A DNA stretch of 19,027 nt from a virus (taxonomy: Duplodnaviria; Heunggongvirae; Uroviricota; Caudoviricetes). Every line of letters starts with the position of its first letter. Positions within the stretch are counted from its first letter, which is position 1. The stretch lies in the IMG/VR virus record IMGVR_UViG_3300022871_000010, one strand, 5' to 3'. Under the pieces are notes generated by a model. That model had not been told where the DNA came from. It saw nothing but the letters and a program-made list of their open reading frames with translations, and did no database searches. The position numbers and the translations under genes were made by a program. Shown piece after piece: positions 1,900-16,008 of the stretch.

Positions 1900-1936
1900 T
1901 TAGTTGCACTTACCAGTAACATAGAGGAAAATAAAA

Positions 1937-2278: not shown

Positions 2279-2282
2279 AGAA

Positions 2283-3163: not shown

Positions 3164-3288
3164 AAAAATTTATTAATGAAATAATGCATTTTATTGATAA
3201 AAAACAATTAAAAAAAGAATTATTAAATGATTTCAACAAAGACTTAAAAATAGATTTTGAAACATATCTTGAAGAAGATTATATGTAA
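3136..3288 (+). CDS. Small hypothetical protein, 50 aa (MFEEYSDELKKF...EEDYM)
   Basis: Translated by hand. Preceded by a GAGGAACAAAAATG junction and fills the gap before 3301. Confidence 0.65.
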   Translation: MFEEYSDELKKFINEIMHFIDKKQLKKELLNDFNKDLKIDFETYLEEDYM

Positions 3289-3300
3289 GAGGTTAATAAA

Positions 3301-3492
3301 ATGGAAAAAATAAAATTATATGTTTGCCCAGTATGTAATTATATGTATAAAGATTATGCTACTTGTAGCGATTGTTGTTCAACAGATATAGAAACAGAAT
3401 TAGGATATGCTTGTGATGAGTGTGAGTGTGGTTACAGTGATAAAGAATCGGCAGAAGCTTGTTGCAAAAAAGAGGTAAAAAAAAATGACTAA
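3301..3492 (+). CDS. Cys-rich protein with two tandem CxxC-x12-CC repeats, probably metal-binding
   Basis: YVCPVCNYMYKDYATCSDCC and YACDECECGYSDKESAEACC. GAGG SD. Confidence 0.75.
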   Translation: MEKIKLYVCPVCNYMYKDYATCSDCCSTDIETELGYACDECECGYSDKESAEACCKKEVKKND

Positions 3493-3892
3493 ACAAAAAA
3501 TTAATAAAGTTACAATAGGGGCATCAATATTATTTGGGTTATTAGTTGGAATACTACTAGTAACACAAATGACATGGTTTGATTATCAATATGACGGAGT
3601 ACAATTAACGCACGATATAAGTATGCAACAATGTACCGAAGCATTACAAAATCATTATGATGTTGAAGAAGATTTAATAAACAATGAACGAACAGCCACA
3701 GACGACAGAGGATTTAGTGATATGCAACAATTAAAAGATTGTAAAATGTTAATAGAAAATCCTAATAGAATTTTAAGAGGAGCTTACGGAAATTTTTGGG
3801 CAGGATTTATCGGCATGAATTTAATGATATTGTTTGCAATCATGATAGTATCACTGTTAACATGGTATATGTTAGATAATATGATTAATTAA
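3485..3892 (+). CDS. Hypothetical two-TM membrane protein with a soluble loop, 135 aa
   Basis: N-terminal IGASILFGLLVGILLV and C-terminal FIGMNLMILFAIMIVSLLTWY. GAGG SD. Confidence 0.8.
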   Translation: MTKQKINKVTIGASILFGLLVGILLVTQMTWFDYQYDGVQLTHDISMQQCTEALQNHYDVEEDLINNERTATDDRGFSDMQQLKDCKMLIENPNRILRGAYGNFWAGFIGMNLMILFAIMIVSLLTWYMLDNMIN

Positions 3893-4134
3893 TGAGGAAC
3901 CATAAAATGGAGAAAAAATTATTACATAAAGATATGAGAGATATTGTTTTAGTTGCAGAAATTAGTGGTAATGACGGGTCTGACGGAACAGCCCTGTTTA
4001 ATCAATATCTCCCGGAAATAACTAAATTACATAGAACGACATTAAACAAACTATCAAAAAAAGAATTAAAAAAAAGGTTTGATAAAATAATGAAGTATAT
4101 AGAGACTGGCTATGACAGATATAAAAATGATTAA
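3892..4134 (+). CDS. Hypothetical protein, true start possibly ATG 3907
   Basis: GAGG at 3894-3897 sits at SD distance from ATG 3907. Confidence 0.7.
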   Translation: MRNHKMEKKLLHKDMRDIVLVAEISGNDGSDGTALFNQYLPEITKLHRTTLNKLSKKELKKRFDKIMKYIETGYDRYKND

Positions 4135-4179
4135 TAAAAAATATTGTTGGGAAATAAAAAACAATACAGAGGAAAAAAG

Positions 4180-4362
4180 ATGATTCAACGACAAGGATTA
4201 AATGTTACAGTTAAACAACTAAGAAAATTAGCAGATAAAATTGAAGCTGAACACAATAATTTGGTCAAAGAATTAGGAATAGTTTTGGTTAAAGATGCAA
4301 CCGCAGTTATAAGCATAATTAATAAAAGCAAATGTTCAGATACTTGGGAGATAGAAAAATGA
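4180..4362 (+). CDS. Hypothetical protein, 60 aa, start moved from TTG 4144
   Basis: GAGG SD upstream of ATG 4180 and ATGA overlap with the next gene. Confidence 0.7.
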   Translation: MIQRQGLNVTVKQLRKLADKIEAEHNNLVKELGIVLVKDATAVISIINKSKCSDTWEIEK

Positions 4363-4781
4363 AATATATAGAAGAAAAAAAATTTGGGCGAGACCACTGG
4401 AATTTACTAGCATATATAGAATATTGCTGCATGAATTACGAGGGAAAACTAAACCCACAAAGAATGAGAATAAAACATAAAACAACAGGAGCATCTGGGC
4501 AATGCAGTAGTGAATGGAATCCAAAATATGGAACAAGGCTAAAAGGATATGTATATGATGATAAAACAACCCATGAAACCTTATTGTTAAAAAAACATGA
4601 TGATTTAGATTGTTTAGATGATTTAGAGAATGCAACAATAATTAAAAATAAAGGAAGTGGATTAAACCCTATGGTAGAACTTACAAAAAAAGGAATAATG
4701 TTATGTGGAAAATTAACAGCGCATAAACAAAATGGCGGGTATTTTTCCAATTTTAACTCAGAGGAAAAAAATGAAATATAA
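4359..4781 (+). CDS. Hypothetical protein with FGRDHW and HDDLDCLDDLE motifs, start moved from 4332
   Basis: GGGAG SD and ATGA overlap at 4359. The motifs look conserved but no function is recognised. Confidence 0.75.
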   Translation: MKYIEEKKFGRDHWNLLAYIEYCCMNYEGKLNPQRMRIKHKTTGASGQCSSEWNPKYGTRLKGYVYDDKTTHETLLLKKHDDLDCLDDLENATIIKNKGSGLNPMVELTKKGIMLCGKLTAHKQNGGYFSNFNSEEKNEI

Positions 4782-5286
4782 ATGCAATAATTGTGGACAT
4801 AAAACGGGTTGTTCAATACCAAACATTTTAGATAATAACAAGTGCGTAATCAAAGGTTGCAATGGAAGACTTAAAATAATAGGAGACACAAAAATGAAGC
4901 TTAACGAAATTGTAAAAGAAATAAAAGAATTTAACGACAAAAGAGGGTACTCAAAACCTGAACAAATAAAAGACATGCTATTAAATCTAGTGAGCGAAGT
5001 ATCAGAATTTTCAGACAGAATAAAGTTTGTGGACGTAAAAACACAGCTAAAAATCATTGAAGAAAATAAAGAATTATTTGCAAACAACATAGCAGATATG
5101 TTATATCTTGTATTGAAACTATCTTACTTAATAAACGTGGATGCAGAAAAAGAATTATTAAAAGTTATGGAAGAATACGAACACAGGTCTCCTTTAACTA
5201 AAGAATTTAACAACGGAAATAAGTATGCAGGAGGTAGTGATTTAAAAAAAGAACACTCACCAAACGGAGGAACAAAAAATGAATGA
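4771..5286 (+). CDS. MazG-like (all-alpha NTP pyrophosphohydrolase) domain with an N-terminal Zn-ribbon
   Basis: LLNLVSEVSEFSD...IADMLYLVLKLSYLINVDAEKELLKVMEEYEHRSP fits the MazG/dCTPase helix pattern. N-terminal CNNC...CVIKGC. GAGG SD before ATG 4771. Confidence 0.65.
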   Translation: MKYKCNNCGHKTGCSIPNILDNNKCVIKGCNGRLKIIGDTKMKLNEIVKEIKEFNDKRGYSKPEQIKDMLLNLVSEVSEFSDRIKFVDVKTQLKIIEENKELFANNIADMLYLVLKLSYLINVDAEKELLKVMEEYEHRSPLTKEFNNGNKYAGGSDLKKEHSPNGGTKNE

Positions 5287-5676
5287 ATGGATACTAGCAT
5301 TAACAATAATAATATTAGCAGGTGAAGGATTGTTTATATTTTTTAGAACAACATGCCAAATAAAGTGCGACTCATGGGGCACAGATAAATTTATATCTTT
5401 TCTTGCAGGGGGGGTGTATTATTTTTTATGTTGGAATGTTCCAAGACTAGAATGCTCAATGGTCATATATGAAAATCCATGGCCTTTAGCAGCATCTTTC
5501 AAATATGTAGGATTTGTGCATATAGGCATACTAGGGATAATAGGATTTATTATTTTAAATAAATATTTATCAGACTTTATACATAATAAAAGAATAGGCA
5601 ATCAGTTTGATAGAATGAAAAATAAAATTACGAGGAACAAAAAATGAATGAATGGATACTAGCATTAACAATAATA
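5267..5676 (+). repeat. 45-bp exact direct repeat (5267-5311 and 5632-5676), with a partial third copy near 5981-6026
   Basis: gaggaacaaaaaatgaatgaatggatactagcattaacaataata occurs twice, 365 nt apart. Confidence 0.9.
5279..5647 (+). CDS. Membrane protein, MNEWILAL family copy 1 (about 3 TM)
   Basis: Hydrophobic segments. Shares its N-terminus and a D(S/W)xGxDK...YY..CW.VPR pattern with copy 2. Confidence 0.8.
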   Translation: MNEWILALTIIILAGEGLFIFFRTTCQIKCDSWGTDKFISFLAGGVYYFLCWNVPRLECSMVIYENPWPLAASFKYVGFVHIGILGIIGFIILNKYLSDFIHNKRIGNQFDRMKNKITRNKK

Positions 5677-5997
5677 CTTATAGCAACGGAAATAATTTTT
5701 ATAACAGCAAGAACGATAGGACGTTTAACAGATGTCGATTGGTTAGGAGATAAAATAGCAGCACTATTTACAGCCGCATTATATTATGTTTGTTGTTGGC
5801 TAGTACCAAGATTTAAAATACATGAATATGGCGGGTTTGGTGGAATGAAAGGATTCACTTATGTTTGGGGAATACATTTCATCATTATAGGCGGGGCAAT
5901 ATTACTTTTATTAAATAAAAAAATATCAAACTTTATATATACCCAAAGACTAAAAAATAAAAAATCTAAAAAACAATCACGAGGTAAGAAAAAATGA
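5644..5997 (+). CDS. Membrane protein, MNEWILAL family copy 2 (about 3 TM)
   Basis: Paralog of 5279-5647, with ATGA coupling. Confidence 0.8.
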   Translation: MNEWILALTIILIATEIIFITARTIGRLTDVDWLGDKIAALFTAALYYVCCWLVPRFKIHEYGGFGGMKGFTYVWGIHFIIIGGAILLLLNKKISNFIYTQRLKNKKSKKQSRGKKK

Positions 5998-6150
5998 ATG
6001 AATGGATACTAGCATTAATAATAATAATAGGGATAGGGATAGAAATAATAATAGCACATAAAAAAGGATTTGATGATGCAAAAAAAACAAATGTTAAACA
6101 ATATTGAAGATTACGAAAACAAACACACTAACAAGGTGAAAAATAAATGA
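5994..6150 (+). pseudogene. MNEWILAL family copy 3, short and apparently frameshifted in the A-run at 6080-6087
   Basis: Reads MNEWILALIIIIGIG...KQY* to 6107. Removing one A extends it to TGA 6148-6150, which overlaps ATG 6147. Confidence 0.5.
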
Positions 6151-6572
6151 CTAGAAATTTATACTTTATTAACACAGTAAATATGAAGAACGAATTAATG
6201 AGACAACCAAAAGCTTACATTCAACCAAAGTTCGGGCAGGATGATTCACATGGATATTCTTACCTGGAAGCTAGAGAACGCTATCAAAAAAATTTAGGGC
6301 ATGTTATGGGCTTAGAAAAAAGCATTACAGAACTAGAACTGCGAAGTAATGGAAGTAAACCTTTTGAACACATTTTTGAAGCATACAACGACTTTATTGA
6401 TAGTAAAACAAAAATGGAAGTAGAATTTTTGACAGGAATACCAGAAGACGATACATTACTGACCTATTACAACTCAATAAAAACATACAATGCTTATACA
6501 ACAATACTAAAACACTACGGAAAAGACTGGACAGATGTTTTAGAAGAACAATACCTAGGTGGTAAAAAGTGA
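6147..6572 (+). CDS. Hypothetical protein, 141 aa
   Basis: AGGTGA SD and a long open frame. Confidence 0.8.
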   Translation: MTRNLYFINTVNMKNELMRQPKAYIQPKFGQDDSHGYSYLEARERYQKNLGHVMGLEKSITELELRSNGSKPFEHIFEAYNDFIDSKTKMEVEFLTGIPEDDTLLTYYNSIKTYNAYTTILKHYGKDWTDVLEEQYLGGKK

Positions 6573-6721
6573 ATGAAACAATAATAACAAAACAAGAGTT
6601 TGCGTCAAACCTATTGAGTTGTGCAAAATACATAGCCGCTAAAGGAACAAACAAAGTAGAAGTACAAATGAAAAATGTTGTGGTAACTTTAGAACTACGA
6701 AATGTAAAGACAAAAGTATAA
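6569..6721 (+). CDS. Small hypothetical protein, 50 aa, GTG start
   Basis: Translated by hand (MNETIITKQEFASN...KTKV). GTGA overlap and AGGTGG SD. Confidence 0.6.
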   Translation: MNETIITKQEFASNLLSCAKYIAAKGTNKVEVQMKNVVVTLELRNVKTKV

Positions 6722-6882
6722 TGGCATCTAAAATACATTGCAAAAAATGTAAAGAACCCATAACACAACACGGGTTATACTTCATAATACAAAAGAAACA
6801 AAAAGGAAATGTTATAACACTTGATACAGAAAAATATTGTGAAAAATGTTTTAAAGAAAAGTTTAAAGGTGAAAAACAATGA
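6721..6882 (+). CDS. Small Zn-finger protein, 53 aa (CKKC...CEKC)
   Basis: Translated by hand. TAATG and ATGA overlaps and two CxxC pairs. Confidence 0.7.
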   Translation: MASKIHCKKCKEPITQHGLYFIIQKKQKGNVITLDTEKYCEKCFKEKFKGEKQ

Positions 6883-7082
6883 AAACAACAAAAAATATCA
6901 TTAAATGCAAAAACCTTTTAAAAGAAGATGAACACTTAATTAAACATTTTATTAAAACAAAAACCGTATGCCCGCAATGTGGGGGAATTATAAGCCATAA
7001 AAAAGATGATAAAACTAACGTGGTTTGTCCACAATGTTTATATATTAATTTTACATTGCCAGTAAAAAATAAAAAAAATTAA
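6879..7082 (+). CDS. Zn-ribbon protein, 67 aa (CPQC...CPQC)
   Basis: Two CPQC motifs and an AGGTGA SD. Confidence 0.75.
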   Translation: MKTTKNIIKCKNLLKEDEHLIKHFIKTKTVCPQCGGIISHKKDDKTNVVCPQCLYINFTLPVKNKKN

Positions 7083-7094
7083 AGGTGAAAAACA

Positions 7095-7415
7095 ATGAAA
7101 ACAATAACTAAATTAAAATTATGTAATAAACTTGAAATAGAATTAAAGCATTTAGGTTTAATAAAAAACATAAATGTTGAAATGACTACACAGGATACAT
7201 TATATTTTATTAATTATAATGAACAATGGTTTAAAAAATTAACTTATGACAAAAAAATAATTATTTGTGAGTTATTGGAAGAATTTTTTAAATCTTATGA
7301 ATTAAAAATAACTAGTTTGTTATTCAAAGAATATGGTTTCGGGGTTAGTGATTGTATCTCATTAACTTTGGAAAAGGTGATGAATAAAAACTTAATTAAA
7401 GGTGAAAAACAATGA
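7095..7415 (+). CDS. Hypothetical protein, 106 aa
   Basis: Flanked on both sides by the 22-bp junction repeat. Confidence 0.75.
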   Translation: MKTITKLKLCNKLEIELKHLGLIKNINVEMTTQDTLYFINYNEQWFKKLTYDKKIIICELLEEFFKSYELKITSLLFKEYGFGVSDCISLTLEKVMNKNLIKGEKQ

Positions 7416-7486
7416 AACCAAACTATGAAAAACCCATAATAACCGAGCAATCAACAAATATTTTAAAAATACTGGATGGTGAATAA
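7412..7486 (+). CDS. Mini-ORF, 24 aa (MKPNYEKPIITEQSTNILKILDGE)
   Basis: Starts in a junction repeat and ends in a GGTGAATAA junction, but is very short. Confidence 0.4.
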   Translation: MKPNYEKPIITEQSTNILKILDGE

Positions 7487-7721
7487 ATAATGACAGATTG
7501 CGAATTAACATTTAAATGTGGAGAACATGATATAAATGAATATTTATAAAATAAAAGCTCTAAGAGAAGCTAGAAAATCTCCTGGGCTATTTAATAGTGA
7601 GAAATTTTCGAGGATGTTAGATTTAGCAATGAAAAAATATTAACTACTAAAGAATTACAACGAAGATTTATATATGATTTGGTGTTTACAATATATTATG
7701 GATAAAGGTGAATAAATAATG
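7478..7721 (+). repeat. 15-bp junction repeat GGTGAATAAATAATG x2 (7478-7492, 7707-7721)
   Basis: Read directly. Each copy is SD + stop + start. Confidence 0.8.
7536..7715 (+). pseudogene. 59-codon frame interrupted by an in-frame TAA at 7641-7643
   Basis: MNIYKIKALREARK...AMKKY*LLKNYNEDLYMIWCLQYIMDKGE*. The frame continues to a canonical junction. Confidence 0.45.
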
Positions 7722-8004
7722 GCTGAATTAAAAGATATAAAAAAAGAAATTATAGGAAAAACATTAAAAACAATAATCAGTCTAGATGTTAATTCTTCAA
7801 ACACACTACAAGAAAAAGCTATAACAGATTGTGATTTTTACGATAATGTGGATATGTCATTCAGATGTTAACGAATCAACATTAGAATGTAAAGAATGTA
7901 AAATGAAATACAAAAAAGAAATTGAAAGAGGCATAAAAGTTATAGGAATAGATTATTCAAGTGACGGAACAAAAAATGCGTTATCAAAGTTTGAAGAAGT
8001 TTAA
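7719..8004 (+). pseudogene. Two overlapping short frames (7719-7871 and 7846-8004), possibly one frameshifted Cys-containing gene
   Basis: Removing one T from the T5 run at 7835-7839 joins MAELKDIKK...DCDF to TIMWICHSD...CKECK...FEEV*. Confidence 0.4.
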
Positions 8005-8019
8005 ATAGAGGAAATAAAA

Positions 8020-8214
8020 ATGTATAACAAAATAGTGAAAATAAAAATAACAAAAAGAGAAAATATAAAAATAGGAGATAAAGTTTTATTTGGCTCAGAC
8101 ATTGTTAAAATTTTAGCCATAAATAATGAATATTGGACTTTTGAAGGCAACGAAATAGTAGGTAAAACATTAACTATGCCCAGCTATAATTCTTATTATA
8201 AATTGGTGAAGTAG
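8020..8214 (+). CDS. Hypothetical protein, 64 aa, possibly a small beta-barrel
   Basis: AGAGG SD. An IKIGDKV motif is suggestive only. Confidence 0.7.
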   Translation: MYNKIVKIKITKRENIKIGDKVLFGSDIVKILAINNEYWTFEGNEIVGKTLTMPSYNSYYKLVK

Positions 8215-8217
8215 AAA

Positions 8218-8622
8218 ATGATAGATGATGATAAAACTATTTTGGTTCCTGATTGCATAAAGATAGAAAACAAGTGTTGTGGTGGTGATGGTTTAGGTAT
8301 TGTTTTTCCTAATAACAAACAAACATTATTATATAATAAAAGGAATGAAGTTTTTGGAGTTCGTGTTTCCTGGTTGAGAGATTTTGTTCAATGCAAATTA
8401 ACTCCTTGCAATTACAAAGATATTAAAGAAGGAGACACTTTTTGTGCTAGTAATTATTTACGAAAATCCTCTTCAGAGTTTGAAAACATAAATTGGTATT
8501 ACAAAAAATTAAAAGAAAAAAATAAAGCTGTTTGTGTTACTGTATCAAATGGTATATCTAACGAAGATATTATGAATTGTTATAATTATTTTTGGAAAGT
8601 TGAAGAGGAAAAAGAAAAATGA
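8218..8622 (+). CDS. Paralog family ILVPDCIKIEN copy 1, lacking the N-terminal helix
   Basis: High identity to 8619, 11880 and 13593. GGTGA SD. Confidence 0.85.
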   Translation: MIDDDKTILVPDCIKIENKCCGGDGLGIVFPNNKQTLLYNKRNEVFGVRVSWLRDFVQCKLTPCNYKDIKEGDTFCASNYLRKSSSEFENINWYYKKLKEKNKAVCVTVSNGISNEDIMNCYNYFWKVEEEKEK

Positions 8623-9077
8623 ATAAAGAACAATTACTTAACGAAATTGAAAAGAAAGCTGATGAGATTAAATATTTGAAGAAAGCTTTAATGAACAAAG
8701 ATGAAGAAACTATTTTGGTTCCTGATTGTATAAAAATAGAAAACAATTGTGGTGGTGGTGATGATTTAGGAATTGTTTTTCCTAATAACAAACAAACATT
8801 ATGCTATGAAGGAAATGAAGTTTTTGGAGTTCGTGTTTCATGCTTGAGAGATTTTGTTCAATGCAAATTAACCTCTTGTAAATACGAAGATATTAAAGAC
8901 GGAGAAACTTTTTATGCCACAAATTATTTAAAAAAATATTCTTCAGAGTTTGAAGACATCTATAATTATTACAAAAAATTAAAAGAAAAAAATAAAGCTG
9001 TTTGTGTAACTGGACAAAATGACGTATCTAATGAAAATATAAGTGGTTTTAACTATTTTTGGAAGTTGAAGAGGTAA
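8619..9077 (+). CDS. Paralog family ILVPDCIKIEN copy 2, C-terminus frameshifted by one missing A near 9063
   Basis: tggaagttgaagag here versus tggaaagttgaagag in copies 1 and 4. Confidence 0.85.
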   Translation: MNKEQLLNEIEKKADEIKYLKKALMNKDEETILVPDCIKIENNCGGGDDLGIVFPNNKQTLCYEGNEVFGVRVSCLRDFVQCKLTSCKYEDIKDGETFYATNYLKKYSSEFEDIYNYYKKLKEKNKAVCVTGQNDVSNENISGFNYFWKLKR

Positions 9078-9084
9078 AAGAAAA

Positions 9085-9426
9085 ATGAAAAGGATAGAAG
9101 AGCCCTACTGTGAATTATGTGATTCTAGAATGGAAGAACATTATAGCACTAACAGTTTATCAAAATATTATGTTTGTGAAAATAAAGAATGTAAATATAG
9201 TGGTGCATTAGGAGTATATGAACAAAATGTAAATTTCAAAGATAAGAAATGGTTTTCTGAAGAAGAAATAAGAAAAGCTATTGAAGAATTGTTTAAATAT
9301 AATAAAGAAAAGGGGACACAACTTGCGTTTATAGGAAAAAATGCTTTATATAAAAAATTGTTTGGTGATGAACGAGCTGAAATCTTTAAGTTTTTAGAGA
9401 ATTATACTAATGTAAAGGTGAACTAA
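9085..9426 (+). CDS. Zn-ribbon-containing hypothetical protein, 113 aa
   Basis: CELC...CENKEC. GAGG SD. Confidence 0.75.
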   Translation: MKRIEEPYCELCDSRMEEHYSTNSLSKYYVCENKECKYSGALGVYEQNVNFKDKKWFSEEEIRKAIEELFKYNKEKGTQLAFIGKNALYKKLFGDERAEIFKFLENYTNVKVN

Positions 9427-9427
9427 G

Positions 9428-9643
9428 ATGCATGAAATGTTATTTTATAGAAATTGTATATCAGCTTTGAAAATGAAGAAATCTATGGTTGCAAAAGTAT
9501 TAAGTAAAATGTATACAGAAGAGTGGTTTGAACATTTCAAAGATAATAAACATTGTGAATGGGGTCAAGTATGTTTAGCTTTAAAAGAAGCAGAAGAAAG
9601 ATTTCAGAAAATAAATGATAAAATGGAAGTGAAACTAAGATGA
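9428..9643 (+). CDS. Hypothetical protein, 71 aa
   Basis: AGGTGA SD and ATGA coupling. Confidence 0.7.
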   Translation: MHEMLFYRNCISALKMKKSMVAKVLSKMYTEEWFEHFKDNKHCEWGQVCLALKEAEERFQKINDKMEVKLR

Positions 9644-9825
9644 TAAAGAAATTTAAGTGGTTTTTATTAATTAAACTTATTGAAGAGTTAGGTATGAGTG
9701 AATTAGAATTTATTCAATCACATTGTTCATCCATTGCATATTTAATGAGCATAGAATGTATTGAGAACTTCAAAGAACTAAAGAAAATGAAAATTTATGC
9801 TGCATTCATTAAAGAAAATAGGTGA
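9640..9825 (+). CDS. Hypothetical protein, 61 aa
   Basis: ATGA coupling. The junction GTGAAACTAAGATG resembles 9418-9430. Confidence 0.65.
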   Translation: MIKKFKWFLLIKLIEELGMSELEFIQSHCSSIAYLMSIECIENFKELKKMKIYAAFIKENR

Positions 9826-9831
9826 AGAAGA

Positions 9832-9966
9832 ATGAAAAAGGAAAAAGAAATAGAAGAACAATTAAGAATATCTGAATCTTTATTAAAACAAAACTTAAAT
9901 AGTGTGACTTTTAATAGATTAAGTGCAGAAATTACTTTATTAAAATGGGTGTTGGGTGATGAATGA
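9832..9966 (+). CDS. Small hypothetical protein, 44 aa (MKKEKEIEEQLR...KWVLGDE)
   Basis: Translated by hand. AGGTGA SD. Ends GDE* inside the first GGTG(ATGA)3 element. Confidence 0.65.
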   Translation: MKKEKEIEEQLRISESLLKQNLNSVTFNRLSAEITLLKWVLGDE

Positions 9967-10206
9967 ATGAAAATCGATTTAAGAACAATTAAAAATAATG
10001 ACACTTATATCATAAACATAATTGGCGGATATTCTTGTTTTAAAGCAATATATCATTATAACTATGGAGTTTTTACAAGAGTTCTATATTCTGGAGATTT
10101 ATTAATATACCCAGAGTTTGAAAGTACATTAAGAGCTAAAAAATTCAAAGAAATTATGAAATACATTAATGATAATAATGTTGAATATAATTATATGAAA
10201 AGGTGA
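9967..10206 (+). CDS. Hypothetical protein, 79 aa, duplicated cassette copy A
   Basis: 6 nt differences from 12669-12908. Flanked by junction elements. Confidence 0.85.
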   Translation: MKIDLRTIKNNDTYIINIIGGYSCFKAIYHYNYGVFTRVLYSGDLLIYPEFESTLRAKKFKEIMKYINDNNVEYNYMKR

Positions 10207-10213
10207 TGAATGA

Positions 10214-10501
10214 ATGAGTAAAACAATAGGTGAACTAATCATAGAATCAACCGAAAAAATAGAAAGACTTACTGCATATGCGAAAAAACGTGGGTCTTAT
10301 TCAAAAGATATAGAACAAACAATAATAAATCAAGTGTATGCAGAAAAGGTGTTTTCTGAAGAAGAAATAATTAAGGCAAGACACCACGTTCAAGTTTTTA
10401 TAAATATTGATAGAGATTTACATAATAAAGTGACTATGGATGATGTTGATAAAGGGCTTGATGAATTTTTAAAAATACTAAAAATAGGTGAGCAAAAATG
10501 A
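10214..10501 (+). CDS. Hypothetical protein, 95 aa
   Basis: Starts at the third ATG of a junction element. Confidence 0.75.
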   Translation: MSKTIGELIIESTEKIERLTAYAKKRGSYSKDIEQTIINQVYAEKVFSEEEIIKARHHVQVFINIDRDLHNKVTMDDVDKGLDEFLKILKIGEQK

Positions 10502-10537
10502 GCAAAAATAAAACAACACAAAAACGAGGGATAAAAA

Positions 10538-10702
10538 ATGTATTACACAATAAAATTCAAGGATAAAATAAACAAAATAATTAGTGACAAAGCTTCATTA
10601 AATAAATTTTTAAGTGAATTTAAAGCAAACAGACCAGACATTTATAAACAACTGAATGTTAGCAAAATCACACAAAATTTTAAACAAGTTATAAAGCTAT
10701 AA
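10538..10702 (+). CDS. Small basic hypothetical protein, 54 aa (MYYTIKFKDK...VIKL)
   Basis: Translated by hand. GAGGG SD. Confidence 0.6.
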   Translation: MYYTIKFKDKINKIISDKASLNKFLSEFKANRPDIYKQLNVSKITQNFKQVIKL

Positions 10703-10730
10703 CTTTACTACTTTTAAATTAAAACACATC

Positions 10731-10738
10731 TTTATATA
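10731..10738 (+). promoter_or_regulatory. Candidate archaeal TATA box (TTTATATA)
   Basis: Lies in the 71-nt intergenic gap, about 23 nt upstream of the AGAGG SD of the ATPase gene, with the same geometry as 1892-1899. Confidence 0.5.
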
Positions 10739-10773
10739 GTTATTACATTTTACAATAGTTAGAGGTTGATAAA

Positions 10774-11571
10774 TTGAATACACTAAAGAAATATATTGAC
10801 ATGATGGTTAAAAAACATATCAATGCTTTACTTTGTCACTCAAAAGCAGGTTACGGAAAAACCTTCAATGTATTAAAGGAACTAAAAAGACACGATGTAG
10901 AATACACTTATATCAGTGGAGTAACGACTGCCGTTGAAGTGTTTAAATTACTTCATGCAAATAACGGAAAAATATTAATTTTAGATGACATCGAAACATT
11001 GTTTCAAAACGACAAAATAATTAACTTGCTTAAAAGCGCTCTATGGAACGCAGGAGACAATAGAATTGTTACCTATAAAACTACACATAAATCTTTAGAA
11101 GGATACCCAGATAGCTTTATTTACACTGGACAAGTAATTATTTTAGCTAATGAAATTAAAGGGCCTCAAGACAAATCATTTTATGCATTAATGAGTAGAT
11201 GTTTAGTTTATGAACTAACCTACACAACAAAAGAATTAACCAGCAAAAGTTTAAAAATTATTAAGAGTGACGAAAGATTATCAACACAAAATATTTGTCA
11301 AGTAACTAAATTAATAAAAAAATACAATAAAATAGGTTATGAATACAATTTTCGTATGCTACAACGAATGATAGAGTTCGTAAAGTATGATGTGAAAACC
11401 GCAGATGCACTCTACGAGAAAAGTGTTGAAAAAAATGACCTAGCATTGTCTGTAGAAAGAATACTTAAATATGTTCCTGCAGGCGAACAATACTTTGAGT
11501 TTCATGAAGAAACAGGTAAAAGTAAATCAACATTTTATAAAATAAAACAACAAATAATTAATGATAGGTGA
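10774..11571 (+). CDS. AAA+/P-loop ATPase with a possible C-terminal helix-turn-helix
   Basis: Walker A SKAGYGKT, Walker B ILILDD, sensor-like IILAN, Arg-finger-like ALMSRC, and tail TGKSKSTFYKIK. TTG start after AGAGG. Confidence 0.8.
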   Translation: MNTLKKYIDMMVKKHINALLCHSKAGYGKTFNVLKELKRHDVEYTYISGVTTAVEVFKLLHANNGKILILDDIETLFQNDKIINLLKSALWNAGDNRIVTYKTTHKSLEGYPDSFIYTGQVIILANEIKGPQDKSFYALMSRCLVYELTYTTKELTSKSLKIIKSDERLSTQNICQVTKLIKKYNKIGYEYNFRMLQRMIEFVKYDVKTADALYEKSVEKNDLALSVERILKYVPAGEQYFEFHEETGKSKSTFYKIKQQIINDR

Positions 11572-11580
11572 TGAATAAAA

Positions 11581-11883
11581 ATGAAAAAAATTAGTAAAGA
11601 TTCAATAAATTTAGAAAAATTAGGAACATTCGCTAAAAGCATCCATAGAAAAGACTACATTTTATTAATAACTAATGATGTAAAAAATGTAATCATAGTT
11701 GATAATAAGAATAAAATTTTCGGAGAAGATTATTTTAAATTATCAACCACTAAGAAAGGTAAATCATTTAATTATTGTTATTTGAACGAAAATGATTTAG
11801 TAATCTTTTTATATAGACAACGAAAATTAATGAACACAAAAACTTACAGAGCTAAAAAAGGAAAGTTGGAGCTAATAAAATGA
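11581..11883 (+). CDS. Hypothetical basic protein, 100 aa
   Basis: Follows the variant junction GGTGATGAATAAAAATG. Confidence 0.75.
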   Translation: MKKISKDSINLEKLGTFAKSIHRKDYILLITNDVKNVIIVDNKNKIFGEDYFKLSTTKKGKSFNYCYLNENDLVIFLYRQRKLMNTKTYRAKKGKLELIK

Positions 11884-12344
11884 ATAAGAAAGAAATATTA
11901 TTGAAAAAGATTGAAGAATTAAAGAAAGAAGTGGAAACTTTAGACAAAGATGAAGAAACTATTTTGGTTCCTGATTGCATAAAGATAGAAAACGTTTTTA
12001 ATAACAGTGGTGATGGTTTAGGAATTGTTTTTCCTAATAACCAACAAACATTATTATATGATGGAACGAACGAAGTTTTTAGAGTTCGTGTTTCATACTG
12101 GGTAGATTTTGTTCAATGCAAATTAACCCCTTGCAATTACAAAGATATTAAAGAAGGAGACACTTTTTATGTTGATATGTATTTGCGAAAACTATCTTCA
12201 GAGTTTGGAGACATAACAAGTTATTACAAAAAATTAAAAGAAAAAGATAAAGCTGTTTATGTTACTGATTCAAATGATACATCTAATGAAAATATAAGTG
12301 GTTTTAGCCATTTTTGGAAAGTTGAAAAGGTGATGAATGAATGA
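11880..12344 (+). CDS. Paralog family ILVPDCIKIEN copy 3
   Basis: High identity to the other copies. Ends KVMNE* inside a junction element. Confidence 0.85.
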   Translation: MNKKEILLKKIEELKKEVETLDKDEETILVPDCIKIENVFNNSGDGLGIVFPNNQQTLLYDGTNEVFRVRVSYWVDFVQCKLTPCNYKDIKEGDTFYVDMYLRKLSSEFGDITSYYKKLKEKDKAVYVTDSNDTSNENISGFSHFWKVEKVMNE

Positions 12345-12523
12345 ATAATTATAAACAAGCACTCAAAGAACATGAATAACTAATAAATAAGATAATGAAC
12401 TCAGAACACCCTGTAGATGTTAAACAAAGGTATGTTGAAACAGCAACAAAAGCATTTGTTAAAAGTATGGAATCGGCAAGTATATCGATGAATAAAATAT
12501 TTAAAGAAATAGGTGATGAATGA
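12341..12523 (+). pseudogene. Junction-to-junction cassette frame interrupted by an in-frame TAA at 12377-12379
   Basis: MNNYKQALKEHE*LINKIMNSEHP...KIFKEIGDE*. Confidence 0.5.
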
Positions 12524-12661
12524 ATGAGTAATAAAGATTTTAATGACACAACAATTCCTTATATTTATTTATCTAAAGAACTAAATATTTGTATGAAATG
12601 TGGTGAAGATAAAGACAAATTTTTTGGGTTGATAAAAACAAAATGTAAGTGTAATAGGTGA
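12524..12661 (+). CDS. Small Cys-containing protein, 45 aa (CMKC...CKC)
   Basis: Translated by hand. Runs exactly from one junction element to the next. Confidence 0.65.
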   Translation: MSNKDFNDTTIPYIYLSKELNICMKCGEDKDKFFGLIKTKCKCNR

Positions 12662-12668
12662 TGAATGA

Positions 12669-12908
12669 ATGAAAATCGATTTAAGAACAATTAAAAATAA
12701 TGACACTTATATCATAAACATAATTGGTGGATATTCTTGTTTTGAAGCAATATATCATTATAACTATGGAGTTTTTACAAGAGTTCTATATTCTGGAGAT
12801 TTATTAATATACCCAGAGTTTAAAAGTACCTTAAGAGCTAAAGAATTCAAAGAAATTATGAAATACATTAATGATGATAATGTTGAATATAATTATATGA
12901 AAAGGTGA
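12669..12908 (+). CDS. Hypothetical protein, 79 aa, duplicated cassette copy B
   Basis: 75/79 aa identical to 9967-10206. Confidence 0.85.
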   Translation: MKIDLRTIKNNDTYIINIIGGYSCFEAIYHYNYGVFTRVLYSGDLLIYPEFKSTLRAKEFKEIMKYINDDNVEYNYMKR

Positions 12909-12915
12909 TGAATGA

Positions 12916-13071
12916 ATGAAAATATATTTTACTCACAACTGGAAAAGATTAAAACTCAAAAGAGGAATAACATTTACTTTATTTGGGTTTGATTTTTATA
13001 GACATTATAGTTTAATAATTTGTTTTTGTAATTTTTATATAACAATAAATTTTGATAAAGGTGATGAATGA
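12916..13071 (+). CDS. Small aromatic-rich protein, 51 aa (MKIYFTHNWK...FDKGDE)
   Basis: Translated by hand. Runs junction to junction. Confidence 0.65.
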   Translation: MKIYFTHNWKRLKLKRGITFTLFGFDFYRHYSLIICFCNFYITINFDKGDE

Positions 13072-13275
13072 ATGAAAACTGAAATATTAGCACTAAAACA
13101 TAAAGAATGCGTTATAGTTCCAGAAAGTGATTATGGAAAGGTCGAGATATGGAGAATTAACGATATGTTTATTTTATTCGATATTCCTATGTATGGTGGT
13201 AAACCTATGTATTATCAATCTTTCAGATTAAATCAAATAGATTATATGATTAATATAATTAATGGGTGGACATAA
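13072..13275 (+). CDS. Hypothetical protein, 67 aa
   Basis: Starts at the third ATG of a junction element. Confidence 0.75.
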   Translation: MKTEILALKHKECVIVPESDYGKVEIWRINDMFILFDIPMYGGKPMYYQSFRLNQIDYMINIINGWT

Positions 13276-13423
13276 TGAAAACAACAAAACAAATAAAAAA
13301 TTTAAGACCTAGGAGCACTTATGAAGACGCAAAAGATTACATTAAGAAGCTGAATACGACTCTGATAAAAAAGACGACGAACACATAACACAAAAAGAAC
13401 TAAAAGAATTAATAAGGAGGTAA
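13275..13423 (+). pseudogene. Short chimeric or frameshifted ORF (MKTTKQIK...TYEDAKDYIKK / EYDSDKK...ELIRR*)
   Basis: The first frame stops at 13388. A frame change near 13349 reaches TAA 13421-13423, which overlaps the SD region of the next gene. Confidence 0.4.
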
Positions 13424-13425
13424 GA

Positions 13426-13596
13426 ATGATTGAACCTAATAATTGTTTTAAAATTGTAAATAATTGTTTTTATGGATATACATCTGATTGTATGGGATTG
13501 TTATCTTTTCATTTAAATTTTTTAGGTTTTATTATTTTAAACATTATTTTTATTTTATTAATAAATTATTTTATTTTTTGGAGGAAAACAAAATGA
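13426..13596 (+). CDS. Small single-TM protein, 56 aa
   Basis: Translated by hand (MIEPNNCF...FLGFIILNIIFILLINYFIFWRKTK). GGAGG SD and ATGA overlap. It explains the odd N-terminus of track ORF 13488. Confidence 0.65.
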   Translation: MIEPNNCFKIVNNCFYGYTSDCMGLLSFHLNFLGFIILNIIFILLINYFIFWRKTK

Positions 13597-14063
13597 AAAC
13601 AATACAGAAAGAAATATTATTGAAAAAGATTGAAGAATTAAAGAAAGAAGTGGAAACTTTAAACAAAGATGAAGAAACTATTTTGGTTCCTGATTGCATA
13701 AAGATAGAAAACAATTGTGGTGATGGTGATGGTTTAGGGATTGTTTTTCCTAATAACAAACAAACATTATGGTATAATGGAATGGACGAAGTTTTTGACG
13801 TCAGTGCTTCATACTCGGTAGATTTTGTTCAATGCAAATTAACTCCTTGCAAGTATGAAGATATTAAAGACGGAGACACTTTTTATACCAATTATGATTT
13901 ACGAAAACTATCTTCAGAGTTTGAAGGCATAAATTATTATTACAAAAAATTAAAAGAAAAAAATAAAGCTATTTGTGTTACTGAAGAAAATGATACATCT
14001 AATGATAGTAATATGCATAATTATAAATATTTTTGGAAAGTTGAAGAGATAAAAGAAAAATGA
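13593..14063 (+). CDS. Paralog family ILVPDCIKIEN copy 4, start moved from TTG 13488
   Basis: GGAGG SD before ATG 13593. The N-terminus matches copy 3. Confidence 0.85.
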   Translation: MKTIQKEILLKKIEELKKEVETLNKDEETILVPDCIKIENNCGDGDGLGIVFPNNKQTLWYNGMDEVFDVSASYSVDFVQCKLTPCKYEDIKDGDTFYTNYDLRKLSSEFEGINYYYKKLKEKNKAICVTEENDTSNDSNMHNYKYFWKVEEIKEK

Positions 14064-14206
14064 ATCCAGCAATAAGAGGATTAAGAAGTCAAGGTCATTC
14101 ATGGTGTTGCGGTGTATGTGGAAGAAAATTAACAAGAAGGTGTGATGCTGAAAGTTGTTGTCCGACAAAAGCATTGGAGAAAAAAGTAATGGTGATGAAT
14201 GAATGA
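14060..14206 (+). CDS. Small Cys-rich protein, 48 aa (WCCGVC...AESCC)
   Basis: Translated by hand. Same CxxC-x12-CC pattern as 3301-3492. Ends VMNE* in a junction element. Confidence 0.65.
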   Translation: MNPAIRGLRSQGHSWCCGVCGRKLTRRCDAESCCPTKALEKKVMVMNE

Positions 14207-14415
14207 AATGTGCTATGTGTGGAGAAAAATTAATACCAATAAGCAAGTCAGAATACGCTCATCCAATTAGTAAAGTAAAAAACTTTGAATGTGTAGATTA
14301 TAACGCATGCTTTCCTAGAGAATTTAGTAAAAACAAAATGGAAACTTTTTGTGGAATAATTGGCAACTTAGTAATAAGTATACCATTCATAATGTTTTTG
14401 ATATGGTTATTATAA
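14203..14415 (+). CDS. Zn-finger-like protein with a C-terminal TM segment, 70 aa
   Basis: MKCAMC...H...C and tail IIGNLVISIPFIMFLIWLL. Confidence 0.7.
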   Translation: MKCAMCGEKLIPISKSEYAHPISKVKNFECVDYNACFPREFSKNKMETFCGIIGNLVISIPFIMFLIWLL

Positions 14416-14433
14416 AATTAGGGTGATGAATGA

Positions 14434-14853
14434 ATGAAAGTGTTAAAACTAGAAATGAACAATAGAGAATTTCATAAATTATATAATTATCTAAATGATA
14501 ATCAAGAACCGTTTAAACAAATATGTCCATTAATAGAAAAAAAAACATTAGAGATAATACCTGGAATGGAAAAACTTCATGAAGAAAAGAAGAGGTTATG
14601 TCCTGCAGGTAAGTTAGTGTTGAATAGACCATTAAAAAATGTACAAGAGGTTTATGAAGCTGATTTATCAAAATTTACAACTAGGAGAGATAAGATAGAA
14701 TATGTTAATAACCCCAAAATAAAATATCCAGATGCAAAAGCTTATATTTTAAAACCACAAATAGTTATCTATACTGATATAAATAGTGAGTTGTCTTTTG
14801 AAGAAGTATTAAAAATTTGGGAAACTAGAGAGTTAAAGGTGATGAATGAATGA
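14434..14853 (+). CDS. Hypothetical protein, 139 aa
   Basis: Runs junction to junction and ends KVMNE*. Confidence 0.8.
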   Translation: MKVLKLEMNNREFHKLYNYLNDNQEPFKQICPLIEKKTLEIIPGMEKLHEEKKRLCPAGKLVLNRPLKNVQEVYEADLSKFTTRRDKIEYVNNPKIKYPDAKAYILKPQIVIYTDINSELSFEEVLKIWETRELKVMNE

Positions 14854-15143
14854 GAATATTATTTGAAGAAGAAAAAGATATTAAATGTGGTATGTACATT
14901 ATAAGAAATTCAAGTCCAATAAACAGTAATGACTACTCATTTGCAATGACAGTGTTATATAAAATTGGTTTTGATACGCACAACGATGATATTTGTAAAA
15001 TTTCATTAACTGATGGAATGGTTATGAGATACAAGCATAAAAAATTTTTAATGAAAGAACTTAATGAAGATAAGTTCGGTTACAGAATTTTAAATAAATT
15101 TGAAGTTGCTGAATTATTAATAAACGATTATAAAAATAGGTGA
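14850..15143 (+). CDS. Hypothetical protein, 97 aa
   Basis: Starts in a junction element and ends in the variant at 15139. Confidence 0.8.
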   Translation: MRILFEEEKDIKCGMYIIRNSSPINSNDYSFAMTVLYKIGFDTHNDDICKISLTDGMVMRYKHKKFLMKELNEDKFGYRILNKFEVAELLINDYKNR

Positions 15144-15177
15144 TGATGAAATATTTAAAGAAATAGGTGATGAATGA

Positions 15178-15285
15178 ATGAATAGAACATTAGATGATGA
15201 TAGACCTTGTTATTGTAGCTTTTGTGATAGAGTTACAAAAACAACAAAACAACATAGATGTGTAGTTTGCGGTAGTAATAAATAA
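15178..15285 (+). CDS. Mini Zn-ribbon protein, 35 aa (CSFC...CVVC)
   Basis: Translated by hand. Lies between two junction elements. Confidence 0.6.
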   Translation: MNRTLDDDRPCYCSFCDRVTKTTKQHRCVVCGSNK

Positions 15286-15300
15286 AAAGGTGATGAATGA

Positions 15301-15453
15301 ATGAAAAATTTACTAAATCAAACAAATAAAACCTTTAGTATTGTTTGTTTAAAATGTAATAGAAAATCTTGTGCTTATGTTTTTACAGATGACGGAGATA
15401 TTGTTATAACTTGTAATGCTTGTAGTTCAACTGAACTTGTGAGGAGAAAATGA
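15301..15453 (+). CDS. Small Zn-ribbon protein, 50 aa (CLKC...CNAC)
   Basis: Translated by hand. Starts in a junction element and has an ATGA overlap at 15450. Confidence 0.65.
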   Translation: MKNLLNQTNKTFSIVCLKCNRKSCAYVFTDDGDIVITCNACSSTELVRRK

Positions 15454-15752
15454 AGAAGATACCGAATGAAATAAAAGAAGGAGTTAGTAAGGATTGGCGT
15501 GATGCTTTTGTTGAAACAAAAATAATTACTAAAGAACAATGCGTAAAACATTCTTGTGCCGACTGCGTTAAACTAATAAGAGTCACTGATTGTAGGGGTT
15601 ATCAGTTGCTTTGTGGTTACGTGGCACAATTTGTGACTGGTGGTTTTTGGCTTGATTCAATGGGTTTACATTTTACTACAGCAGGAATTAATTCTGATAG
15701 AGAAGCCACTTATGAAGACGCAAGAGATTACATTAAGAAGTGGAAGAAATGA
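15450..15752 (+). CDS. Cys-containing hypothetical protein, 100 aa
   Basis: GAGGAG SD. CVKHSCADC. Confidence 0.75.
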   Translation: MKKIPNEIKEGVSKDWRDAFVETKIITKEQCVKHSCADCVKLIRVTDCRGYQLLCGYVAQFVTGGFWLDSMGLHFTTAGINSDREATYEDARDYIKKWKK

Positions 15753-15786
15753 CTTTACTTTACTTTATTAACACGGTAAAAAAAAA

Positions 15787-16008
15787 ATGACAAATATAAA
15801 ACTTAGAGAACTAACAGAACCAACAAACCAACCAGGAAAACAATATTTATTATTAGCAATAAAACTAATTATAGGGTTTTTTATAATGATAAATGGTTCC
15901 GCAACAATATTTTTTACAATCGCACTGCAACCAATCTGGATGTTTTATTTTTCAATATCAATGATTATTTGTGCGGCATTATTTAGTATGATTGAAAAAG
16001 GTGAATAA
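15787..16008 (+). CDS. Small two-TM membrane protein, 73 aa
   Basis: Two hydrophobic segments. Confidence 0.7.
   Translation: MTNIKLRELTEPTNQPGKQYLLLAIKLIIGFFIMINGSATIFFTIALQPIWMFYFSISMIICAALFSMIEKGE

What the first reader, a model, noticed from the sequence alone, without database searches (positions are those of the whole stretch)
9955..12919. A 263-bp cassette duplicated precisely from junction element to junction element
Seen: 9955-10217 and 12657-12919 match with only 6 substitutions in the 240-nt ORF. Similarity stops immediately outside the elements on both sides (gtgttg vs gtaata upstream, gtaaaac vs aaatat downstream), and the neighbouring genes differ. Four of the six changes are non-synonymous first-position A/G swaps that alter charge (K/E three times, N/D once). 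Inference: the element-bounded gene is the unit of movement, and the copy is recent.
Basis: partly seen in the sequence, partly recalled or inferred. Interest (0 to 1): 0.8.

Follow-up and report, generated by a model that had tools for sequence, protein, structure and literature searches.

The report
Gene cassette duplicated between junction repeats
A small gene of unknown function in an uncultivated AT-rich virus has been copied exactly from one 16-base gene-junction signal to the next, and related virus genomes show single genes gained, lost and stacked at that junction; this is a clear new example of a known way in which viruses shuffle genes.

Summary
Window 9955-10217 and 12657-12919 are 263-nt copies with 6 substitutions. 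Identity falls to background (9/30) directly outside the flanking 16-nt junction GGTGATGAATGAATGA ("M"). M occurs 12 times exactly, against 0.04 expected.

It is not an assembly artefact. Six contigs from six samples carry both copies and the 2.4 kb between them at 99.97-100% identity.

M is a Shine-Dalgarno, stop and start linker. The next gene always starts at ATG position 13, and upstream genes stop in all three frames.

Relatives support M as a crossover point:
- a 156-nt "M + 51-codon gene" unit is present or absent exactly;
- two cassette copies lie head to tail with one M between them;
- the cassette sits in five or more neighbour contexts;
- one junction switches to M through 6 changes in 8 nt, in 800 nt that are otherwise nearly identical.

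Other rearrangements in the block do not use M. These are a microhomology deletion, a 3-gene indel and an in-gene chimera.

"Recent copy" is not shown. One contig carries a gene-conversion patch between the copies, and two of the four K/E and N/D sites (26 and 59) are polymorphic at one locus.

This is a new member of a known kind: boundary-sequence or PeSL-like modular shuffling. This scan noted similar junction linkers before on other DNA.

The parts
9955..9970 (+). Junction M (GGTGATGAATGAATGA), 5' boundary of copy A. The upstream 44-aa gene stops at M positions 10-12. The 79-aa gene starts at M position 13.
9967..10206 (+). 79-codon ORFan gene, copy A (residues K26, E52, K59, N70)
   Evidence: the only relatives are near-identical copies plus two clusters at 57% and 49% identity; no Pfam, PHROG or PADLOC hit
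10202..10217 (+). Junction M, 3' boundary of copy A. The gene's stop is at M positions 3-5, and the 95-aa gene starts at position 13.
12657..12672 (+). Junction M, 5' boundary of copy B
12669..12908 (+). 79-codon gene, copy B (residues E26, K52, E59, D70)
12904..12919 (+). Junction M, 3' boundary of copy B and 5' boundary of the 51-codon unit
12916..13071 (+). 51-codon gene. Together with one M it forms a 156-nt unit that is present in L051 and in the window but exactly absent from L034.
13060..13075 (+). Junction M before the 67-aa gene
12329..12344 (+). Junction M at the end of the 154-aa paralog (stop at M positions 14-16)
12512..12527 (+). Junction M before the 45-aa gene
14191..15304 (+). 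Five further exact M junctions (14191, 14422, 14838, 15166, 15289) that bound single small genes
9075..9088 (+). Junction between the 152-aa and 113-aa genes. It is non-M here (TAAAAGAAAAATGA) but an exact M in L041, L042, L043 and L035. L060 versus L041 shows 6 changes in this 14-nt stretch and 1 change in the surrounding 800 nt.
15135..15181 (+). Scar. Half an M (GGTGATGA) is fused to the last ~16 nt of the unit that ends at 12527, followed by a full M. It is the remnant of a second duplicated unit.
   Evidence: (family D6)
9682..9941 (+). About 260 nt (most of the 61-aa and 44-aa genes) that are missing from the variant lineage. The ends lie at 7-8-nt microhomology, not at M.
8218..14063 (+). 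Four paralogs of a 134-156-aa family (8218-8622, 8619-9077, 11880-12344, 13593-14063). Their conserved 3' end is followed by different junction types. In every arrangement seen, a copy of the 79-aa gene lies 0-4 genes downstream of one of them.

Best explanation
The repeat is a real, precise duplication of one 79-codon gene together with the 16-nt junctions on both sides. It lies in a hyperplastic block of small accessory genes in an uncultivated virus with 28% GC. The junction M, GGTG(ATGA)3, is first of all a translation linker. [quoted passage not shown] M is the longest exact sequence shared by many junctions of the block. For that reason it also serves as the preferred crossover point for short-homology recombination. 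Possible routes are unequal exchange between genome copies, excision of a circle followed by re-insertion at another M, or template switching during replication. The result is that 'M + one gene' behaves as a unit that can be duplicated, stacked in tandem, lost, or placed in a new neighbourhood while remaining translated. Once two copies exist, they exchange patches by gene conversion. What is shown: the exact boundaries, the recurrence in independent assemblies, the exact unit indel, the tandem arrangement, the junction-only switch, the conversion patch, and the use of stops in all frames. What is inferred: that the crossovers happen inside M because of its homology, which enzymes act, and the direction of each event.
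For: (1) Boundaries. Identity is 98% across 263 nt and falls to background (9/30) immediately outside both Ms.
(2) Not an artefact. L036/L045, L037, L038, L039, L040 and L046, from six samples, hold window 9800-13100 at 99.97-100% identity. The longest exact run shared by the two copies is 77 nt, shorter than the final k-mer of 141 that the k141_ contig names indicate for the ENA assemblies (the link from contig name to k is my own knowledge).
(3) Exact unit indel. L051 and L034 are identical over about 430 nt downstream and differ by exactly one 'M + 51-codon gene' unit of 156 nt.
(4) Tandem. L064 reads cassette tail, one exact M, full cassette, M, 95-aa gene. The two copies differ at 2 of 120 shared positions, so this is not a collapsed loop.
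(5) Contexts. The upstream neighbour is the 44-aa gene, a 19-codon remnant, the 45-aa gene, two kinds of paralog, or another cassette. The downstream neighbour is the 95-aa, 51-aa or 67-aa gene.
(6) Junction-only switch. L060 versus L041 shows 0/400 changes upstream, 1/400 downstream and 6 in the 14-nt junction, which turns a non-M junction into M at the same length.
(7) Linker function. All 12 Ms put an ATG at position 13. Upstream stops lie at position 5 (3 times), 12 (3 times), 16 (3 times) or just upstream of M (3 times). Eleven of the 19 gene starts between 9955 and 15304 follow an exact M.
(8) No dedicated machinery. There is no integrase, recombinase or reverse transcriptase domain in the window. 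There is no inverted repeat, terminator or promoter enrichment at the junctions.
(9) Precedent. In T4-type phages, recombination between repeated regulatory cassettes that flank ORFans gives deletions and mini-circles, with crossovers mapped between the SD and the -10 box (PMC2839356).
Against: Sixteen bases is short for homologous recombination, and no recombination enzyme was identified. Several rearrangements in the same block do not use M. Recombination here is therefore promiscuous, and selection for intact genes may explain part of the tidy boundaries. No 'empty site' was found for either copy, that is, 44|M|95 or 45|M|51. Some supporting contigs are short (L034 804 nt, L064 614 nt, L053 766 nt). 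No read-level check was possible. Some of the new contexts could come from crossovers inside the 240-nt gene rather than inside M.
Confidence: 0.6

Rival explanations
1. The duplication is old and the copies are kept alike by concerted evolution. On this reading the ancestral unit was 'paralog-family gene + 79-aa gene', and it was duplicated as a block. Other genes were later inserted between the two parts. The 79-aa copies are kept similar by gene conversion, and the conversion tracts stop at M because homology ends there.
For: A 79-aa copy lies 0, 2 or 4 genes downstream of a member of the 134-156-aa family in every arrangement seen. A conversion patch is documented in L055. A diverged lineage also has two contexts. 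The 113-aa gene that directly follows one paralog shows weak similarity to the 79-aa protein (E=0.003).
Against: The paralogs differ by 14-28% at the DNA level, while the 79-aa copies differ by 2.3% with only 2 synonymous changes. Conversion would need to cover the whole gene up to both Ms and never the paralogs. Conversion tracts normally end inside the homology, which would leave diverged ends, and none is seen. This reading still needs insertions at M to separate the two genes.
Confidence: 0.2
2. M is only a good translation signal. Rearrangements arise by illegitimate, homology-independent recombination at random places, and only those that end at gene boundaries survive, so the tidy ends are a product of selection.
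For: This is the prevailing general view of phage mosaicism (PMC3029335). Non-M events occur in the same block. Block-level breaks fall at other SD/start junctions.
Against: Random breaks filtered by selection would leave small variations in junction length or sequence. Instead, the duplication, the 156-nt indel and the tandem all restore an exact M with no extra or missing base. The junction-only switch, with 6 clustered changes, must be templated by another M. The window holds no copy with 1-2 mismatches.
Confidence: 0.12
3. M is the site of a dedicated site-specific system, so the block is an integron-like gene-capture array served by an unrecognised recombinase.
For: The cassettes are promoterless, lie in one orientation and are bounded by one invariant site. 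Most proteins of this virus have no recognisable family, so a novel enzyme cannot be excluded.
Against: No integrase or recombinase domain was found. M has no dyad symmetry or hairpin of the kind attC sites have. M is fully explained as SD + stop + start. Degenerate Ms (AGTGATGA..., AGTGGTGA...) still bound the cassette in relatives.
Confidence: 0.04
4. The repeat is an assembly artefact, or the differences come from directed mutagenesis of the diversity-generating retroelement kind.
For: Repeats in metagenome assemblies can be spurious. Four of the six differences are A in one copy and G in the other.
Against: Six independent contigs agree base for base across both copies. No reverse transcriptase is present. 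The differences are not confined to adenines of one copy: they read C/T, A/G, G/A, A/C, A/G, A/G.
Confidence: 0.02

Closest known systems
PeSL (promoter-early stem-loop) cassettes of T4-type phages (Arbiol et al. 2010, PMC2839356; Comeau et al. 2014, PMC4122927)
   Same: A repeated regulatory element flanks ORFan genes in a hyperplastic region. Close relatives differ by insertions, deletions and replacements whose ends lie in the element. No dedicated recombinase is involved. Some PeSL crossovers were mapped next to the Shine-Dalgarno sequence.
   Different: PeSLs are composite elements, with a sigma-70 early promoter plus a terminator hairpin, lying in intergenic spaces. M is a 16-nt translation linker inside an operon-like string with 7-nt gaps, and it has no promoter, hairpin or terminator. 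Mini-circles were demonstrated for PeSLs and could not be tested here.
Short conserved boundary sequences at gene junctions as sites of homologous exchange in phage mosaics (proposal cited for lambdoid phages; Island3/Brujita example in PMC3029335)
   Same: A short identical sequence at gene ends mediates gain or loss of one gene, either by intramolecular deletion or by exchange with another genome.
   Different: Such sequences are usually found at only a few junctions. Here one exact 16-mer marks 12 junctions, and within one virus population there are duplication, tandem, indel and junction-conversion events.
Start-Associated Sequences (SAS) of Cluster K mycobacteriophages (Pope et al. 2011, PMC3203893)
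   Same: A conserved asymmetric motif in one orientation contains the SD core. It lies a few bases before the ATG of many unrelated non-structural genes, and the upstream stop often lies inside it.
   Different: The sequence is different (13 bp, GGGATAGGAGCCC). SASs are spread over half the genome and conserved across subclusters, and no role in cassette movement has been proposed for them. M includes the start codon and stops in three frames.
Integron gene cassettes
   Same: Promoterless single-gene units in one orientation are bounded by a repeated site and can be stacked.
   Different: There is no integrase, and there is no attC-like imperfect palindrome. The mechanism is most likely general short-homology recombination.
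Deletion and duplication between short direct repeats (RecA-independent slipped misalignment or short-homology recombination; general knowledge)
   Same: The 156-nt indel is flanked by about 22 nt of identity. The roughly 260-nt deletion is flanked by 7-8 nt.
   Different: That general process does not explain why one 16-mer is kept exact at 12 junctions, or how it replaces another junction type.

Membership tests
PeSL-type mobile regulatory cassettes | A repeated element flanks ORFan genes in a variable (hyperplastic) region | tested here: met
   There are 12 exact Ms at 9955-15304 that bound single small genes with no family. A sister genome, L059, is 99.77% identical up to window position 8606 and then lacks the whole block and every M.
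PeSL-type mobile regulatory cassettes | Gene-content differences between close relatives have their ends in the element | tested here: met
   An exact 156-nt unit indel, a tandem cassette pair and context switches at M. Non-M events also occur.
PeSL-type mobile regulatory cassettes | The element is composed of an early promoter plus a stem-loop terminator | tested here: not met
   There are no terminator-like sites, promoter-like sites are below the shuffled expectation (51 vs 65.5), and there are no inverted repeats at the junctions. Intergenic gaps are only 7 nt.
PeSL-type mobile regulatory cassettes | Circular excision products (mini-circles) | not testable with these tools
The head-to-tail junction in L064 continues into the 95-aa gene, so it is a chromosomal tandem and not a circle.
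Start-Associated Sequences (Cluster K mycobacteriophages) | A conserved asymmetric motif with the SD core lies a few bases before the start of many unrelated genes, in one orientation | tested here: met
   All 12 copies are on the + strand, and the ATG is at M position 13 in every case.
Start-Associated Sequences (Cluster K mycobacteriophages) | The 13-bp consensus GGGATAGGAGCCC and the Cluster K lineage | tested here: not met
   The sequence is different and no phage record matches at the DNA level. The likeness is functional only.
Integron | A tyrosine recombinase (IntI) next to the array | tested here: not met
   No Pfam, PHROG or PADLOC hit of that kind among the proteins scanned: the largest ORFs of the window and the genes around both cassette copies. 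The rest of the genome was not available.
Integron | attC sites that form imperfect hairpins | tested here: not met
   M has no dyad symmetry, and there is no inverted repeat within 60 nt of any junction.
Diversity-generating retroelement | A reverse transcriptase plus a template/variable repeat pair that differs only at template adenines | tested here: not met
   There is no RT. The differences include C/T and G/A.

The most novel reading that the evidence does not exclude
M is more than a passive homology patch. On this reading it is a self-propagating, frame-independent gene-capture linker. It spreads to other junctions by short-patch conversion. It terminates any incoming reading frame and restarts translation. 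It thereby turns the block into an integrase-free, integron-like platform in which any DNA that lands between two Ms is expressed at once, in a virus that earlier notes of this scan consider probably archaeal.
Probability: 0.12. Interest if true: 0.75.

Novelty: new member of a known kind. Interest (0 to 1): 0.42.

Why it matters
How phage and virus mosaics arise is an old argument. One side favours homologous exchange at short conserved boundary sequences; the other favours random illegitimate joins filtered by selection. This virus population holds both kinds of event side by side in a few kilobases. It also shows, in natural variants, each product expected from boundary-sequence exchange: a dispersed copy, a tandem copy, an exact single-gene loss or gain, and conversion of the junction itself. 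That makes the relative rates measurable from the reads of the same samples. The finding also cautions against dating duplicates from their divergence where gene conversion is active.

Tried and rejected
- Own genome: none is held for this window, and handles for the ENA contigs are not held.
- GenBank phages: megablast found no DNA match.
- IMG/VR, motif scan: 33 contigs with one M each, which is chance level, and no multi-copy relative.
- IMG/VR and species genomes, protein searches: no relatives of the 79-aa protein or of the ATPase.
- Metagenome-contig scan with the ATPase: only 3 short loci.
- Structure of the 79-aa protein: the single-sequence AlphaFold model has pLDDT 49, too poor to search with. 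The ESM Atlas gave no usable hit.
- Full HMMER scan of 1.84 billion representatives: only two further clusters, at 57% and 49% identity.
- Larger block duplication: the flanking genes are not paralogous.
- Positive selection on the K/E sites: pN/pS is 0.44, which is not significant. Sites 26 and 59 were seen segregating at one locus. The many K/E and N/D combinations among cluster members fit exchange between the copies better than repeated selection.
- DGR and integron readings: both failed their defining features (see the membership tests).
Full report
**Observation**

Window 9955-10217 and 12657-12919 align without gaps over 263 nt with six substitutions.

Each copy is one 79-codon ORF (9967-10206 and 12669-12908) bounded on both sides by the 16-mer GGTGATGAATGAATGA, here called M. 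Immediately outside the Ms, 9 of 30 bases match on each side, which equals the background for random 30-mers of this window (9.2 +/- 2.6). The flanking genes (44 vs 45 aa, 95 vs 51 aa) show no similarity by blastp.

M occurs 12 times exactly, all on the + strand between 9955 and 15304. There is no copy with one or two mismatches, and 0.04 copies are expected from shuffles.

**Artefact test**

No genome or reads are held for this window, so I used independent assemblies. The two proteins are on record in 12 and 10 contigs.

Six contigs from six samples contain window 9800-13100, that is, both copies and everything between them, at 99.97-100% identity:
- L036/L045 (ERZ27315921)
- L037 (JGI 3300023257)
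- L038 (JGI 3300022890)
- L039 (ERZ27315886)
- L040 (ERZ27316076)
- L046 (ERZ27315667)

The longest exact run shared by the copies is 77 nt. That is shorter than the final k of 141 indicated by the k141_ names of the ENA contigs (the naming convention is my own knowledge). A de Bruijn assembler could therefore keep the copies apart. The duplication is real.

**What M is**

The window has 28% GC and carries about 60 small + strand genes, nearly all without any Pfam, PHROG or PADLOC family. One is a P-loop ATPase with distant relatives in large phages. Earlier notes of this scan on the same genome call it a large uncultivated, probably archaeal, virus; I did not test that.

Every gene has an SD of the GAGG or GGTGA type 6-9 nt before its start. 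In M, GGTGAT is complementary to the 3' end of 16S rRNA (established knowledge). The ATG at M position 13 is the start of the next gene in all 12 copies.

The upstream gene ends as follows:
- at the TGA of positions 3-5, three times, giving a tail ending ...R;
- at positions 10-12, three times, giving ...GDE;
- at positions 14-16, three times, giving ...VMNE;
- at its own stop just upstream of M, three times.

Because (ATGA)3 has period 4, it offers a stop and a start in each frame. Eleven of the 19 gene starts between 9955 and 15304 follow an exact M. No promoter enrichment, terminator or inverted repeat accompanies the junctions. M is therefore a stop, SD and start linker inside an operon-like string.

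**Relatives**

The 79-aa protein has only near-identical relatives, a cluster of 17 sequences, plus two clusters at 57% and 49% identity among 1.84 billion representatives. All contigs come from one set of ENA and JGI metagenomes. They show the cassette in several neighbourhoods:

| Upstream neighbour | Downstream neighbour | Contigs |
|---|---|---|
| 44-aa gene | 95-aa gene | window type |
| 19-codon remnant | 95-aa gene | L041-43, L060-63, L065 |
| 45-aa gene | 51-aa gene | window type |
| 156-aa paralog | 51-aa gene | L051, L052, L054 |
| paralog | 67-aa gene | L034 |
| paralog | 95-aa gene | L053 |
| another cassette | 95-aa gene | L064 |

1. **Exact unit indel.** L051 and L034 are identical over the 67-aa gene and the next gene, and about 95% identical upstream. 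They differ by exactly 156 nt, which is one M plus the 51-codon gene (window 12904-13059).
2. **Tandem.** L064 reads cassette tail, one exact M, complete cassette, M, 95-aa gene. The tail is identical to the L051-type copy, and the full copy is the copy-A type. The two differ at 2 of the 120 shared positions, so this is a true head-to-tail pair and not a loop in the assembly graph.
3. **Context switch.** L053 and L054 are identical through the cassette and diverge at the first base after the 3' M.
4. **Junction-only switch.** At the junction between the 152-aa and 113-aa genes, the window and L060 read TAAAAGAAAAATGA, while L041, L042, L043 and L035 read TGATGAATGAATGA, which is M. L060 and L041 have 0 differences in 400 nt upstream and 1 in 400 nt downstream, but 6 in this 14-nt stretch. 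Six clustered changes at constant length must be templated. M can therefore replace another junction, or be replaced by it, without moving any gene.

**Events that do not use M**

- The variant lineage lacks about 260 nt (window ~9682-9941). The ends lie at a 7-8-nt microhomology inside two genes.
- The variant lineage has three extra genes between window 10502 and 10520, with no M at either end.
- L035 encodes a chimera that leaves the 79-aa gene at window position 10157.
- The variant lineage lacks window ~11580-16000. The break lies at the SD/start junction behind the ATPase gene, which is M-like but not M.
- L059, an 81.6-kb contig, is 99.77% identical to window 1-8606. It then diverges inside the conserved 3' end of the first member of a 134-156-aa paralog family. 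It has no M, allowing up to 2 mismatches, in 19.9 kb.

The block is thus a lineage-specific hyperplastic region in which recombination is generally promiscuous. M is the most used breakpoint but not the only one.

**Age of the copy**

- L055 is 99.85% identical to window 9260-11950, yet its copy A carries the three copy-B bases at 10120, 10128 and 10141. These are flanked by copy-A bases on both sides, which indicates a gene-conversion patch of 22-132 nt.
- At the copy-A locus of the variant lineage, the residues at positions 26, 52, 59 and 70 read K-E-K-N in four contigs (L041, L042, L043 and L049, the last being the same record as L041), E-E-K-N (five contigs) and K-E-E-N (one contig). Among the cluster members, 10 of the 16 possible combinations of these four residues occur.
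- One sample (JGI 3300031227) holds the gene in two contexts in the diverged lineage (L041 and L052).
- pN/pS between the window copies is 0.44, and 4 N to 2 S does not differ from neutrality (P=0.30). AAA, GAA, AAT and GAT make up a quarter of the codons.

The low divergence may therefore reflect concerted evolution as much as youth. The charge swaps are shared polymorphisms rather than a clear sign of selection.

**Mechanism**

The best-supported reading is short-homology recombination at M, with confidence 0.6.
- Unequal exchange between the M before and the M after a gene gives the tandem seen in L064, and its reciprocal is the exact loss seen in L034.
- Excision as a circle followed by re-insertion at another M, or a double exchange using both Ms, gives a dispersed copy such as copy B.
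- Short-patch conversion between junctions explains the switch at 9075-9088.

This mirrors the PeSL system of T4-type phages. There, recombination between repeated regulatory cassettes deletes or inserts ORFans and produces mini-circles, and some crossovers lie next to the SD (PMC2839356). It also matches the older proposal of conserved boundary sequences (PMC3029335).

M differs from a PeSL in being only a translation linker. It resembles the Start-Associated Sequences of Cluster K mycobacteriophages in position and orientation but not in sequence (PMC3203893). Integron and DGR readings fail their defining features.

The main rival, with confidence 0.2, is an older duplication of 'paralog + 79-aa gene' that is kept uniform by conversion. 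It is favoured by the constant association with the paralog family. It is weakened by the 14-28% divergence of the paralogs against 2.3% for the cassette.

**Novelty**

This is a new member of a known kind. This scan has already noted junction linkers that bound swappable genes in other phage genomes (e1-1964165, e1-1681767, e1-487442). What is unusually complete here is the set of natural intermediates within one population.

Noticed in passing
window 1-8606 versus L059:1784-10389: An 81.6-kb contig from the same sample as L040 is 99.77% identical up to window position 8606, inside the 3' end of the first 134-aa paralog. After that it carries quite different genes: a 62-aa gene, a Dam methylase, a DUF87 ATPase and a BppL_N-like protein. 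A more distant PolB-bearing element, L056, has these same genes. About 10 kb of the window genome is therefore replaced in a sister genome.
   Followed up: partly
window 12341-12523: The unit between the Ms at 12329 and 12512 is one 60-codon reading frame with a single in-frame TAA at 12377-12379. The same stop is present in all six long assemblies. It is either a pseudogene or two tiny ORFs.
   Followed up: no
window 15135-15181: Half an M is fused to the last ~16 nt of the unit that ends at 12527, and a full M follows. This looks like the scar of a second duplicated unit that was then mostly deleted.
   Followed up: partly
window 5279-6107: Three tandem genes (122, 117 and 37 aa) share an almost identical start region of about 70 nt, including their SD, and an N-terminus beginning MNEWILALT. 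This is a second local family with its own junction type.
   Followed up: no
P0013, P0014 (L055:381-962): Some ENA gene calls read straight through M with TGA as tryptophan and so fuse three genes into a 193-aa product. This is a gene-caller artefact, not evidence of recoding.
   Followed up: no
L063:1-400 and L034:558-773: A 71-aa gene of the relatives shares segments with the window's 113-aa gene (9242-9385). In L063 a hybrid 85-aa gene follows a copy of that 71-aa gene across an exact M. The 113-aa protein also shows weak similarity to the 79-aa protein (E=0.003).
   Followed up: partly
window 8590-8610, 9056-9074, 12303-12323, 14028-14047: All members of the 134-156-aa family end with the same ~19 nt (ATTTTTGGAAAGTTGAAGA). 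After this, four different junction types follow in different copies and relatives. This gene end is a second recurrent breakpoint.
   Followed up: partly
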